In this document: in pieces, positions 9,001 to 12,000 of the stretch
Layout of the letters: every line of letters begins with the position of its first letter
Position numbering within the stretch: the first letter of the stretch is position 1
Assembly (NCBI GenBank): GCA_016788785.1
Contig: JAEUSM010000006.1
Location: forward strand, 473,864-537,863
Direction: 5' to 3'
Source of the DNA: Candidatus Kapaibacterium sp.
GTDB lineage: Bacteria; Bacteroidota; Ignavibacteria; Kapaibacteriales; JAEUSM01
DNA: 64,000 bases
Position numbers: made by a program

Positions 9001-12000
9001 ACCCAAATTCCAAGTATAACAATCCTGTGTGTATCCTTTAAATTGATAAGAAATATTAATTACTGGCTGAGAATTTCCACCAGTTGGCATATCAATAGTT
9101 TCTGTTCTTTCCCACTCCGCAACTGTAAAACAATCTATAAGTGTACCTGATGCTCCTGTATATGCTGGACCAAATCTCATCAACCCTTGTGGTTGATTAT
9201 CCTCTTCGTGTCCACCACAACCACAATCACCGAGCTTTTGGCTACTGGCAATTAAGCCTTGATAACTACTTCCACCACAACCACAATCAGAATCAGAAGT
9301 TACGGCTGCATTAGGATTTGCAACCGTAGAACTTCCAATTTTTTGGTTTTGTGATTGTGCTATAATTGAATTTGCAAACATAGTGTTACCTCATAATTAC
9401 GCTTGAAGTAAAAAGCAACGTAATTCAAATATAGAAGACTGATTGGTAGTACTTTCTAATCTAATTCCGATATTTAAAGGACCAACATATTCACCAAAGA
9501 GAAAATCGAATGTACCAACACCTGTAAATGGACCTGTACCAAAATCATATACTTGTACATTACCATGAACATCACCACGAGTTACAGCAGATTCCATAAT
9601 TCCAATTTGGAGTTTGTTGTAGTTATTTGCACCAAGATTGAATTTGATTTGAGACATCCACTTCGATTGTGTAGGATTGTTATACAAATACACTAAACCA
9701 CGAAGTTGTGGAGGAACAGAAGTTCCATAATTTGCCATTAATGTTTGTGCATTCATAGCTTGAGATTGTAATAGATCTGTTGCATTATGCGAGCCATTAA
9801 TCGCATTGACTGTAGGTTCATCATTGATAACAATAGGAGAATCTACCCATGCACCACCGGTTGGATTGTTAAACACATTTGAATACTGAATTTGAGCATT
9901 GATAACTGGTCCGGCAAATTGGCATTTGACAAATGAAAGATACGGAGCAATCGGTTGAGGATTTGAGTTTTGGAGTGATAACCACCCACCAGAAAATTGT
10001 TTCATAGCAGTTACTATAATTAGTTTGTAGAAGGAAAAAACGTATAATAACTACTAATATATATATATATATATATATATACAAAAGCAAATATGCGGAT
10101 AAAAAAATTTTATTAATTTTTGGTAACATCCTTCTAAAACTCGGTTTTAAGCCTATTCTCAGGTTAAAGATAGTGAAAATTAGACAAAAAATGGTTTCAA
10201 TCTATGCACATAAGTTTCTATCTTAGAGCATGTAGATTCCACCCCGTAACACTTCGACTTCGCTCAGTGACCAATGTCACCCCTCAAGAGGGGAACCCAG
10301 ACATACCACCCCGTCACTTCGTTCTACCCCTCAAGAGGGGAACCAATGTTGTTTCAGAAAATGTAGTTGCAACCTTTACGGTTGTCCAATGAATTCAGAA
10401 TGACCCCTCACCCCTTTCGCCTCTTCCGCTCAAGGGGAGAGGGAGTTGTTTTTATTTGGTCATTCGTTCTATAAATATGTGACCACTCTGTGGTCAAGAA
10501 TCAACAAAACTACCGATTACATCTCACAAACAGTCCATATATCCTGGCATAGAGTACCATTCGCGGATGAGTAGTTTGCCTTTTGCATTTCTGCGGAAGG
10601 TGATGGTATGGTGTGAACACGATTGGTCGAATGGTTGTCGTTTTGAAGGAAATCGTAAGGAAAATTCCATTCCAATTGGTTCACGTGCTTTTGATCGCTC
10701 AGATACAATGATGTGTTTTTTGGGGATGTTTTTCGAAATGGTGGCGAAAAATGCTTTTACTTCTTCAAATTCGAAATCTAAAGAATCACTTTCTACTGCA
10801 TAGAAAATAGTGTCTCCTTTTGCAATTTCGGTTTGCTCTAATGTGTATTTGGAGAAATGTTTTGCTATATTTTTACTATTTTTTGATTTGATAGTTTTTT
10901 GAATTTCTTTGATGCGATTGATTCCTTGATCTTTCAAATCATCATTGACAATTTCTATAATTTTATCAGTAGATACACCTTTTGACTGTTGTGATTGAAC
11001 AGAAAATGGAAAAACTGTGAACAAATACAAACTTATAATTGCGAAAACTACCTTCACATGAGACCTTTCAGAAAATATATACAGAAAAAAAACGTACATT
11101 TGCTCAAATTTACAACGAAATACCAAAGGAAACAACAATATGTCGCAAAGAAACGCAATTTCTCAATTTATGGAAACCCATTTTCTCCATTTCAATGCTG
11201 CTTCTGTAGTCGACGCTGCTAAAGCATACGAACGCCATTTGGCTCAAGGTGGGAAAATGATGATTACGTTGGCAGGTGCAATGTCAACAGCTGAATTGGG
11301 AAAATCACTTGCTGAAATGATTCGCCAAGATAAAGTGCAGATTATTTCTTGTACTGGAGCAAATTTGGAAGAAGATATTATGAATTTGGTTGCTCATTCG
11401 CATTACAAACGAGTTCCTAATTACCGTGATTTGTCCCCTGATGATGAGTGGGAATTGTTAGAGCAAGGGTTTAATCGTGTGACAGATACTTGTATTCCTG
11501 AAGAAGAAGCGTTTCGTCGAATCCAAAAACATATTTTTCATTTGTGGGATAAAGCTCAAAAAGAAGGAAAACGCTATTTCCCACACGAGTATATGTATGA
11601 ATTACTTCGTTCCGATGTTATGAGAGAACATTATGAAATTGATACCAAAAATTCATGGATGATTGCAGCTGCTGAAAAAAATCTACCTATAATTTGTCCA
11701 GGTTGGGAAGATTCGACTATGGGTAACATCTTTGCTTCGTATTGCTATACTGGAGAATTGCAACCATCTATTATGAAGTCAGGTATCGAATACATGACAT
11801 TTTTGGCTCAATGGTATCGAGATAACACGACTATTGTCGCTCCTAAAGACGGTCAAGATTTTGTTGCTGAAGGAACAATTGGATTTTTCCAAATAGGTGG
11901 GGGTATTGCTGGTGATTTCCCAATTTGTGTAGTGCCAATGTTACATCAAGATTTGGAAATGGAAAACATTCCGTTTTGGGGCTATTTTTGTCAAATTTCT

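What the first reader, a model, noticed from the sequence alone, without database searches (positions are those of the whole stretch)
10057..10080. (AT)12 dinucleotide tract in the promoter of the unknown operon: candidate phase-variation switch
A perfect 24-bp AT dinucleotide run lies ~50-75 bp upstream of the first start codon of the operon, on the minus strand. Dinucleotide tracts of this length are prone to slipped-strand mispairing. When such a tract sits between promoter elements it changes the -35/-10 spacing. The Haemophilus hifA/hifB (TA)n tract is the classic example. A phase-variable promoter in front of a secreted-protease operon would be a notable regulatory feature.
Basis: partly seen in the sequence, partly recalled or inferred. 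Interest (0 to 1): 0.5.

Follow-up and report, generated by a model that had tools for sequence, protein, structure and literature searches.

The report
Repeat tract inside a promoter: likely on/off switch
A perfect (AT)12 repeat lies between the two predicted recognition boxes of the promoter of a four-gene operon in an uncultured Kapabacteria-like bacterium. Relatives carry other simple repeats of varying copy number at the same spot, so it is very likely a slippage-driven expression switch of a well-known kind.

Summary
Window 10057-10081 is (AT)12A, 52-76 nt upstream of the ATG at 10005 on the minus strand. It is the only long simple repeat in 64 kb, with a chance expectation of about 2e-9.

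Comparison supports the switch idea.
- A contig identical to the window over 4,614 nt differs only by one TA unit (13 against 12).
- Relatives at 95% and 86% identity have (TA)10, and two further contigs end inside the tract.
- Diverged homologues of the first gene carry other repeats at the same promoter position: (AAATT)5/6, (AATTT)4/5, (ATCTT)5 and T9-T16.
- In 285 kb of window plus related loci, every repeat of 11 nt or more lies at this promoter.

The promoter is probably not the -35/-10 type. It fits the Bacteroidota/Chlorobi type, a -33 TTTG and a -7 TAnnTT(T/A)G, with the repeat as the spacer. The window has TTTG-N20-TATATTAG, and relatives have N15, N16, N20, N21, N22 or N25.

The operon encodes three proteins of unknown function and one metzincin with a T9SS sorting domain. 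It sits on a 5-kb islet that a 97%-identical strain lacks.

Not shown: heterogeneity within one population, the transcription start, and which repeat length is ON. This is a new member of a known kind.

The parts
10057..10081 (-). Simple sequence repeat, T(AT)12 on the coding (minus) strand and (AT)12A on the plus strand. Proposed variable spacer of the promoter.
   Evidence: Length varies in relatives: 13 units in L001/L024, 10 in L010 and L026, and contig ends inside the tract in L002 and L003.
10082..10085 (-). Proximal TTTG, proposed -33 element, directly abutting the repeat. It lies 20 nt upstream of the -7-like box when n=12.
   Evidence: TTTG or CTTG lies 0-9 nt upstream of the repeat in the TA, AATTW, ATCTT and both T-run clades. 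It is conserved in L010 and L026 although the sequence further upstream has diverged.
10088..10091 (-). Distal TTTG, 6 nt upstream of the first, within cATATTTG. It is an alternative -33 element (spacer 26 at n=12, 22 at n=10). In the rival model it is part of a -7 box.
10054..10061 (-). TATATTAG, proposed -7 box (TAnnTTTG type, 5 of 6 specified positions). It is formed by the last 5 nt of the repeat plus TAG and starts 56 nt upstream of the ATG.
   Evidence: Equivalent boxes at the 3' edge of the repeat in relatives: TAAATTAG, TAATTTAG, TATTTTTG, TATGTTTG, TTAGTTTG. The position is typical of TAnnTTTG boxes of other genes here, -29 to -61. The Chlorobaculum -7 consensus is TA[ATC][ATC][AT]T.
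9397..10005 (-). First gene, ORF202. Beta-sandwich protein of unknown function with no signal peptide. This is the gene family that carries repeat-bearing promoters.
8335..9381 (-). Second gene, ORF348a. Unknown function, N-terminal CGCGG motifs, poorly conserved (24% identity to its counterpart in L027).
7264..8310 (-). Third gene, ORF348b. Unknown function, with an N-terminal signal-peptide-like segment.
5954..7267 (-). Fourth gene, ORF437. Metzincin-like metalloprotease (HELGHLLGFDH) with a T9SS C-terminal sorting domain.
10480..10496 (-). Terminator-like hairpin after the upstream same-strand gene (10524-11099). It suggests that the operon has its own promoter in the 518-nt intergenic region.
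5507..10504 (.). 5.0-kb strain-variable islet holding the operon, its promoter and the flanking repeat clusters. It is absent from a strain that is 97% identical in the flanking DNA.
   Evidence: Inverted 45-nt repeats at 5622-5666 and 10306-10350.

Best explanation
The (TA)12 tract is a hypermutable simple repeat that forms the spacer of the promoter of a four-gene accessory operon. The promoter is of the Bacteroidota/Chlorobi type. It has a -33 TTTG (10085-10082) directly upstream of the tract. It has a -7 box, TATATTAG (10061-10054), made from the end of the tract plus the flanking TAG. With 12 units the two boxes are 20 nt apart, which is within the spacing reported for this promoter type. 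Slipped-strand mispairing during replication adds or removes TA units, changing the spacing in steps of 2 nt (16, 18, 20, 22). That raises or lowers transcription, so a population holds cells with the operon on, low or off. Shown here: the tract, its variable length among assemblies, repeats at the homologous promoter in other lineages, and the flanking motifs with their spacings. Inferred: that these motifs are the promoter, that 20 nt is the ON state, and that switching occurs within populations.
For: (1) Length varies while the flanks stay constant. L024 (Logan SRR12144710) matches the window over 4,614 nt with 0 mismatches and a single 2-nt gap, which is the tract, 13 against 12 units. L010 (95.4% identity) and L026 (85.6%) have 10 units. 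L002 and L003 contigs end inside the tract.
(2) The tract stays perfect, without interruptions, in lineages whose upstream DNA has diverged beyond easy alignment.
(3) Homologous promoters carry other repeat units at the same place: (AAATT)5 in L005 and L014, (AAATT)6 in L006, L007 and L008, (AATTT)5 in L031, (AATTT)4 in L004, (ATCTT)5 in L019, T16 in L012, T13 in L027 and L030, T11 in L016, T9 in L029. L014 and L007 encode identical ORF202 proteins and are 97% identical over 9.7 kb, yet have 5 and 6 units.
(4) Specificity: in 285 kb of window plus loci, every repeat of 11 nt or more lies at this promoter, and elsewhere there are only 9-10 nt homopolymers.
(5) Promoter type: TAnnTTTG occurs 22 times on the sense strand upstream of genes and 7 times on the antisense strand, with a peak at -50 to -40. 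TATAAT and TTGACA show no such bias.
(6) Spacings from TTTG to the -7-like box: 20 in the window, 22 in L001, 16 in L010 and L026, 20 in L005, L014, L031 and L030, 25 in L006, L007, L008 and L019, 15 in L004, 21-22 in L027 and L012. The repeat-less L009 and L021 have a canonical TTTG-N19-TAT[TG]TTTG at -57, the same position as the window's box at -56.
(7) Literature: B. fragilis -33 TTTG / -7 TAnnTTTG (PMC7366714; PMC9330008). Flavobacterium TTG-N17-23-TANNTTTG, and a related RpoD motif with -7 TA[ATC][ATC][AT]T mapped by dRNA-seq in Chlorobaculum tepidum (bioRxiv 10.1101/172254).
(8) Precedent: (TA)9-11 between the hifA/hifB promoter elements, with A12 or A17 tracts instead at other hifA loci (PMC2651432).
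Against: No reads were available, so heterogeneity within one population is not shown. One-unit differences between assemblies of an AT dinucleotide tract can come from PCR stutter or from the assembler. No transcription start is mapped. The -7-like boxes are partly made of the A/T repeats themselves, so some of their match is automatic, and the window's box has A where the consensus has T at position 7. The '20 nt' optimum was noticed in these same data, so it is partly post hoc. The list behind the TAnnTTTG enrichment is redundant, because several loci share the same neighbouring promoter, and no clear -33 spacing peak emerged from other genes. L016 and L029 lack a clean TTTG upstream of their T-runs. 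Full-length homologues in L011, L015 and L017 have no repeat. The TTTG upstream of the tract could instead belong to a -7 box (rival 1).
Confidence: 0.6

Rival explanations
1. The repeat is hypermutable and regulatory but lies downstream of the promoter. The TTTG just upstream of it is the end of a -7 box (cATATTTG in the window). Transcription then starts at or near the first repeat units, so the tract is the start of the 5' leader. Copy number would act through initial transcription, leader length or stability rather than through box spacing.
For: An nAnnTTTG string ends 0-9 nt upstream of the repeat in many lineages: cATATTTG (window), aAAATTTG (L026), TAAATTTG (L031, a perfect box listed), gAGATTTG (L012), cAGATTTG (L027), aAGATTTG (L030).
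Against: The highly conserved T at box position 1 is missing in all but L031. No TTTG or TTG lies 17-23 nt upstream of these strings (read from the sequences). The box would sit about 84-91 nt from the ATG, outside the -29 to -61 range of TAnnTTTG boxes of other genes here. This model does not explain why the spacings fall at 20 or at 20 plus or minus whole repeat units.
Confidence: 0.15
2. The tract is a neutral microsatellite, or merely an A/T-rich spacer. It mutates in length, but expression is not meaningfully switched and nothing selects for the repeat.
For: The genome is 66% A+T and the intergenic DNA is A/T rich. Three full-length homologues have no repeat. No expression data exist.
Against: Long repeats are otherwise absent from 285 kb of these genomes, yet they occur at this one promoter in at least four repeat-unit classes. 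The tracts stay uninterrupted across 15% coding divergence. Copy numbers stay within one or two units of the value that gives a 20-nt spacing.
Confidence: 0.12
3. The tract acts through DNA structure or as a protein-binding site rather than through its length. Possibilities are cruciform extrusion of the palindromic (AT)n, an easily melted region, curvature or an UP-like element.
For: (AT)12 is self-complementary. As a single strand it folds to -5.1 kcal/mol, z = -2.9.
Against: The hairpin is weak. The repeats at the same position in relatives, T-runs, (AAATT)n and (ATCTT)n, are not palindromic. What the lineages share is therefore a length-variable A/T spacer, not a structure.
Confidence: 0.05
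4. The length differences between assemblies are technical (PCR stutter, assembler choice) and the tract is stable in the cells.
For: AT dinucleotide runs are error-prone in amplified short-read libraries. The 12 against 13 difference rests on two assemblies. Contig ends at low-complexity DNA are common.
Against: Differences of a whole 5-nt unit (L014 against L007, L005 against L006) and of 3 nt in T-runs (L012 against L027) come from independent projects and assemblers and are hard to explain by stutter. L027 and L028, from two samples, agree exactly over 6.9 kb including T13, so the assemblies are reproducible.
Confidence: 0.08

Closest known systems
Haemophilus influenzae hifA/hifB fimbrial promoter (TA)n switch (van Ham et al. 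1993, as summarised in PMC2651432)
   Same: A TA dinucleotide tract of about 9-13 units sits between promoter elements, and changes in unit number alter their spacing. Homologous loci in other strains carry a different repeat class, A12 or A17, instead. That parallels the T-run and pentanucleotide repeats found here. In both cases the locus is present in only some strains.
   Different: hif has sigma-70 -35/-10 hexamers and two overlapping divergent promoters. Here the flanking boxes fit the -33 TTTG / -7 TAnnTTTG type and only one operon is served. The products are not fimbriae. Switching is not demonstrated here.
Promoter-spacer homopolymer switches such as Neisseria meningitidis porA poly-G and opc poly-C, and Mycoplasma hyorhinis vlp poly-A (from my own knowledge, not checked here)
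   Same: A repeat in the spacer between the two promoter boxes tunes or switches transcription. The T9-T16 tracts in the related clades (L012, L027, L030, L016, L029) are of this form.
   Different: Those are in Proteobacteria and Mollicutes with -35/-10 promoters and well-characterised surface antigens. Here the organisms are uncultured and the products are unknown.
Bacteroidota-type primary-sigma promoter (-33 TTTG / -7 TAnnTTTG; Bayley et al. 2000 as cited in PMC7366714 and PMC9330008; Chlorobaculum variant in bioRxiv 10.1101/172254)
   Same: TTTG lies 20 nt upstream of a TAnnTT(A)G box that starts 56 nt before the start codon. TAnnTTTG is enriched on the sense strand upstream of genes in these genomes.
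   Different: The window's box has A instead of T at position 7. No transcription start is mapped. To my knowledge a repeat spacer has not been described for this promoter type. The searches found only inversion-based phase variation for Bacteroidetes, but that library is incomplete.
Invertible-promoter phase variation in Bacteroides (capsular polysaccharide loci; PMC3090145 and PMC10028968, listed)
   Same: Stochastic on/off control of accessory surface or secreted functions in the same broad phylum.
   Different: That mechanism is site-specific inversion between inverted repeats by a recombinase. Here no invertase gene was noticed next to the promoter, though this was not searched for specifically. 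The variable element here is a repeat tract.

Membership tests
Simple-repeat contingency locus (promoter-spacer type) | An uninterrupted repeat above the length at which slippage is frequent, roughly 5-6 or more dinucleotide units or 9 or more homopolymer bases | tested here: met
   25-nt perfect T(AT)12. Relatives have 21-27 nt, all perfect.
Simple-repeat contingency locus (promoter-spacer type) | The repeat lies between the two core promoter elements | tested here: inconclusive
   Motif-based only: TTTG-N20-TATATTAG with the box starting at -56, and the same arrangement in relatives. No transcription start is mapped. A rival placement of the -7 box upstream of the tract is not excluded.
Simple-repeat contingency locus (promoter-spacer type) | Repeat number differs between otherwise near-identical genomes | tested here: met
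   12 against 13 units with 0 mismatches in 4,614 nt. 5 against 6 AAATT units at 97% DNA identity with identical ORF202 proteins. Caveat: these are assemblies, not reads.
Simple-repeat contingency locus (promoter-spacer type) | Several lengths coexist within one population | not testable with these tools
   No read access. Contigs that end inside the tract in two samples are compatible with this but not diagnostic.
Simple-repeat contingency locus (promoter-spacer type) | Expression changes with repeat number | not testable with these tools
   Needs reporter assays or allele-resolved transcript data.
Bacteroidota/Chlorobi-type sigma-A promoter | A -7 box TAnnTTTG (in Chlorobaculum, TA[ATC][ATC][AT]T) | tested here: inconclusive
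   TATATTAG matches 5 of the 6 specified positions and fully fits the Chlorobaculum hexamer. Part of the match is supplied by the repeat itself.
Bacteroidota/Chlorobi-type sigma-A promoter | A -33 TTTG or TTG 17-23 nt upstream of the -7 box | tested here: met
   TTTG at 10085-10082, spacer 20 nt.
Bacteroidota/Chlorobi-type sigma-A promoter | This promoter type is the one used by the organism | tested here: inconclusive
   TAnnTTTG is 3-fold enriched on the sense strand upstream of genes, and TATAAT and TTGACA are not. But the set is small and redundant, and the organism's sigma factor was not examined.
hifA/hifB-type switch | The tract is shared by two overlapping divergent sigma-70 promoters | tested here: not met
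   The upstream neighbour (10524-11099) is on the same strand and ends in a terminator-like hairpin. No convincing -35/-10 pair spans the tract.

The most novel reading that the evidence does not exclude
The ORF202 gene family of uncultured Kapabacteria/Ignavibacteria-like bacteria is a lineage-wide contingency locus. Its Bacteroidota-type -33/-7 promoter has kept a slippage-prone spacer through long evolution while the repeat unit itself turned over: TA, AATTW, ATCTT, poly-T. That would be the first repeat-spacer phase variation described for this promoter architecture, in a phylum otherwise known for inversion switches. It would control a previously unknown, strain-variable secreted or envelope module.
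Probability: 0.5. Interest if true: 0.6.

Novelty: new member of a known kind. Interest (0 to 1): 0.5.

Why it matters
Phase variation by repeat slippage is textbook biology for host-adapted pathogens such as Haemophilus, Neisseria, Campylobacter and Mycoplasma. It is hardly documented for environmental, uncultured lineages, or for the Bacteroidota-type promoter, where known switches are DNA inversions. Here comparison alone gives a strong signature: the same promoter has four repeat classes, variable copy number, and spacings that fall at 20 nt or at 20 plus or minus whole units. If confirmed, it would extend the mechanism to a different promoter architecture. It would provide a natural spacer-length series for that promoter type. 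It would also flag the ORF202 operon as a function under fluctuating selection, for example from phage, predators or competitors. That operon has unknown proteins plus a T9SS metalloprotease and is present or absent between strains, which makes this orphan gene family worth characterising.

Tried and rejected
- A sigma-70 promoter scan found no -35/-10 pair spanning the tract, and the number of hits equalled the shuffled expectation. TTGACA and TATAAT are not strand-enriched upstream of genes.
- An Rfam search of 9900-10600 at E<=1 found nothing, so no known leader RNA or riboswitch is present.
- Function of the operon:
  - Pfam, NCBIfam, PADLOC, PHROGs and PDB sequence searches gave nothing for ORF202, ORF348a and ORF348b.
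  - The afdb50 library was unavailable.
- Looking for more tract alleles through exact-protein look-ups of ORF348a, ORF348b and ORF437 returned the same contig or fragments without the promoter.
- Looking for a -33 spacing peak among other genes' TAnnTTTG boxes failed because there were too few cases.
- The cruciform idea rests on a weak hairpin, and relatives have non-palindromic repeats.
- The primary paper on spacer length in the Flavobacterium ompA promoter could not be retrieved.
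Full report
**Observation.** Window 10057-10080 is a perfect (AT)12, and the run extends to 10081, giving 25 nt. On the minus strand it reads T(AT)12. It lies 52-76 nt upstream of the ATG at 10005 of a 202-aa ORF. It is not a chance feature. No (AT)6 occurred in 100 dinucleotide-preserving shuffles. A first-order Markov expectation for (AT)12 in the window is 2e-9, and the next longest AT run is 8 nt.

**Context.** ORF202 (9397-10005) is followed on the same strand, with gaps of 15 and 24 nt and then a 4-nt overlap, by three further genes.
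- ORF348a (8335-9381).
- ORF348b (7264-8310), which has a signal-peptide-like N-terminus.
- ORF437 (5954-7267).

ORF437 has a weak Peptidase_M10 match, a visible HELGHLLGFDH zinc motif and a T9SS C-terminal sorting domain. The other three match no family. The upstream gene (10524-11099) is on the same strand and is followed by a terminator-like hairpin. The operon should therefore have its own promoter in the 518-nt intergenic region. Homologues of ORF202 come from MAGs labelled Candidatus Kapaibacterium, Ignavibacteriota, Chlorobiota and Bacteroidota. The window has 34% G+C.

**Tract length in close relatives.** Exact-protein look-ups and collection scans gave several relatives.
- A Logan contig from SRR12144710 matches the window over 4,614 nt with no mismatch and one 2-nt gap, which is the tract: 13 units against 12.
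- A JGI contig at 95.4% identity (L010) has 10 units.
- An NCBI metagenome contig at 85.6% identity (L026) also has 10 units.
- Two Logan contigs from other samples (L002, 84.8% identity; L003, 92.6%) end inside the tract after 25 and 26 repeat bases.

In all of them the tract is uninterrupted. In L026 the DNA upstream of ...ATTTGCTTTTG has diverged strongly, while that motif, the tract and the following TTAGTAGT are kept.

**Other repeats at the same promoter position.** This is the most informative result. Diverged homologues of ORF202 (45-63% identity) carry other simple repeats at the same place, about 40-80 nt before the start codon.

| Repeat | Loci |
|---|---|
| (AAATT)5 | L005, L014 |
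| (AAATT)6 | L006/L013, L007, L008 |
| (AATTT)5 | L031 |
| (AATTT)4 | L004 |
| (ATCTT)5 | L019 |
| T16 | L012 |
| T13 | L027/L028, L030 |
| T11 | L016 |
| T9 | L029 |

L014 and L007 encode identical ORF202 proteins and are 97% identical over 9.7 kb, but have 5 and 6 units. Elsewhere there are only 9-10 nt homopolymers. The clades correspond to at least four repeat-unit classes. Not all homologues have a repeat. Full-length L011, L015 and L017 lack one. So do L009/L021/L022 and L020/L023, where the homologue is truncated to 58 and 104 aa.

**Which promoter.**
- A sigma-70 scan finds nothing spanning the tract.
- In 70 upstream regions of the window and loci, TAnnTTTG occurs 22 times on the sense strand and 7 times on the antisense strand, with a peak at -50 to -40.
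- TATAAT and TTGACA show no such bias.
- The TAnnTTTG list is partly redundant, so this is indicative rather than conclusive.

The literature gives a -33 TTTG and a -7 TAnnTTTG for Bacteroides fragilis (PMC7366714; PMC9330008). It gives TTG-N17-23-TANNTTTG for Flavobacterium. A related RpoD motif with -7 TA[ATC][ATC][AT]T was mapped by dRNA-seq in Chlorobaculum tepidum, a relative of these lineages (bioRxiv 10.1101/172254).

**The repeat is the spacer.** In the window the tract is abutted upstream by TTTG (10085-10082). Its last five bases plus TAG form TATATTAG (10061-10054), which starts at -56. The spacer is 20 nt. The same arrangement recurs in relatives.

| Locus | Arrangement |
|---|---|
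| L001 | N22 |
| L010, L026 | N16 (N22 from a second TTTG 6 nt further upstream) |
| L005, L014 | TTTG-N20-TAAATTAG |
| L006, L007, L008 | N25 |
| L031 | TTTG-N20-TAATTTAA |
| L004 | CTTG-N15-TAATTTAG |
| L019 | TTTG-N25-TATTTTTG |
| L027 | N21 |
| L012 | N22 |
| L030 | TTTG-N20-TTAGTTTG |
| L009, L021 (no repeat) | TTTG-N19-TAT[TG]TTTG at -57 |

The repeat-less L009 and L021 thus have a canonical promoter at the position of the window's box. All pentanucleotide lineages are in register with 20 nt: 15, 20 or 25. These box positions fall in the range seen for TAnnTTTG boxes of other genes here, -29 to -61.

Three caveats apply. The A/T repeats supply part of the box match. The value of 20 nt was noticed in these same data. 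L016 and L029 lack a clean TTTG.

**Mechanism proposed.** Slipped-strand mispairing changes the number of units and thereby the -33/-7 spacing, in 2-nt steps here and in 5-nt or 1-nt steps in relatives. The promoter moves between an optimal spacing (about 20 nt, the window's state) and weak or inactive spacings. I infer that the window allele is ON and that the N15/16 and N25 alleles are OFF or low. This is not shown.

**Rival explanations.**
- The TTTG upstream of the tract may belong to a -7 box (cATATTTG; TAAATTTG in L031). The tract would then start the leader. That model lacks a -33 partner, lacks the conserved first T of the box, and places the box unusually far from the ATG.
- A neutral microsatellite is hard to reconcile with the specificity and purity of the repeats.
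- A structural role for the palindromic (AT)n is weak (-5.1 kcal/mol) and is not shared by the non-palindromic repeats of relatives.
- Technical artefacts could explain a one-unit TA difference. They cannot easily explain whole 5-nt units across independent projects. L027 and L028, from two samples, agree exactly over 6.9 kb including the T13 run.

**What is controlled.**
- The ORF202 model (pLDDT 80, pTM 0.80) is a beta-sandwich with only generic matches.
- The family is very small, with 16 clusters found in the 5.8-billion-sequence protein database.
- Downstream partners differ between clades. The window and L027 have two unknown proteins plus the T9SS metzincin. L006 and L031 have a cysteine-rich 587-aa protein and two small proteins with signal peptides and weak outer-membrane beta-barrel similarity.
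- A strain 97.5% identical around the deoxyhypusine-synthase-like gene lacks window 5507-10504 altogether, that is, the operon and its promoter.
- The missing segment is bracketed by inverted copies of a 45-nt repeat.

A strain-variable, envelope- or secretion-related accessory module is the usual kind of cargo for a contingency locus.

**Comparison with known systems and verdict.** The mechanism is that of the classic promoter-spacer repeat switches. In hifA/hifB, (TA)9-11 sits between promoter elements, and other hifA loci carry A12 or A17 instead (PMC2651432). Membership of the general class is met for repeat length and between-genome variation. It is inconclusive for placement between mapped promoter elements. 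It is untestable here for within-population heterogeneity and expression. It is not a hif-type divergent sigma-70 promoter.

Literature searches for repeat-based phase variation in Bacteroidetes returned only inversion systems, but the library is incomplete. I rate it a new member of a known kind. Interest is moderate because of the unusual promoter architecture, the turnover of repeat units at one promoter, and the orphan operon.

Noticed in passing
window 5507-10504; L033: The whole operon with its promoter is a 5.0-kb insertion/deletion. L033 (Logan SRR29704199), 97.5% identical around the deoxyhypusine-synthase-like gene, joins ORF154 (5012-5476) to ORF191 (10524-11099) with 40 nt between them. 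L033 also lacks window 3028-3614 (ORF156).
   Followed up: partly
window 5572-5745 and 10275-10350: Clusters of a GC-rich hairpin repeat (GGTTCCCCTCTTGAGGGGTG...GAAGTGACGGGGTGG) flank the islet in inverted orientation, with 45-nt arms that are 93% complementary. In 64 kb the core occurs only at these four sites, plus one weak match at 27524. They could be REP-like elements or the ends of a mobile unit.
   Followed up: partly
window 5807-5829, 10395-10445, 29429-29451: A second kind of GC-rich repeat (GGGGAGAGGGA / CCCTCTCCCC hairpins) occurs in intergenic DNA, two of the three sites next to the islet.
   Followed up: no
window 21418-21839: A 120-nt tandem repeat, 3.1-3.5 copies, 83-85% matches (TRF score 594 and 571). 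It lies mostly inside a plus-strand ORF (21443-21904) and would encode repeated 40-aa units rich in Arg, Ser and Glu.
   Followed up: no
L006 6625-8388 (also L031 5623-7383): In the AAATT/AATTT clade the gene after the ORF202 homologue encodes a cysteine-rich 587-aa protein. It contains YDCCFNHDVALWC, which resembles the CCxxHD catalytic motif of secreted phospholipases A2 (my reading; no Pfam, NCBIfam or PDB match). It is followed by two small signal-peptide proteins with weak outer-membrane beta-barrel similarity.
   Followed up: partly
L009, L021, L022 (about 6001-6253); L020, L023: The ORF202 homologues in these loci are truncated, to 58 and 104 aa before a stop, consistently across independent metagenomes. 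These loci lack the promoter repeat. L009 and L021 instead have a canonical TTTG-N19-TAT[TG]TTTG.
   Followed up: partly
L012, L027, L029, L030, about 105-120 nt upstream of the ORF202 homologue: The T-run clades share a conserved block (TCCCATA[AT]T[AT]C[CG]) well upstream of the repeat, and L012 and L027 have a TATCTTTG at -133. This could be a regulator site or a second promoter. No counterpart was seen in the window.
   Followed up: no
window 10082-10091: Two TTTG motifs lie 6 nt apart upstream of the tract (ATATTTGCTTTTG), conserved in L010 and L026. With two possible -33 elements, 20-nt spacing would be reached at 12 units from the proximal one or at 9 units from the distal one.
   Followed up: no
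window 9397-10005: The ORF202 family is extremely rare. Only 16 clusters turned up among 5.8 billion non-redundant proteins, all from Kapabacteria/Ignavibacteria-like metagenomic bins, with invariant G6, G7 and W8 at the N-terminus and no signal peptide.
   Followed up: partly
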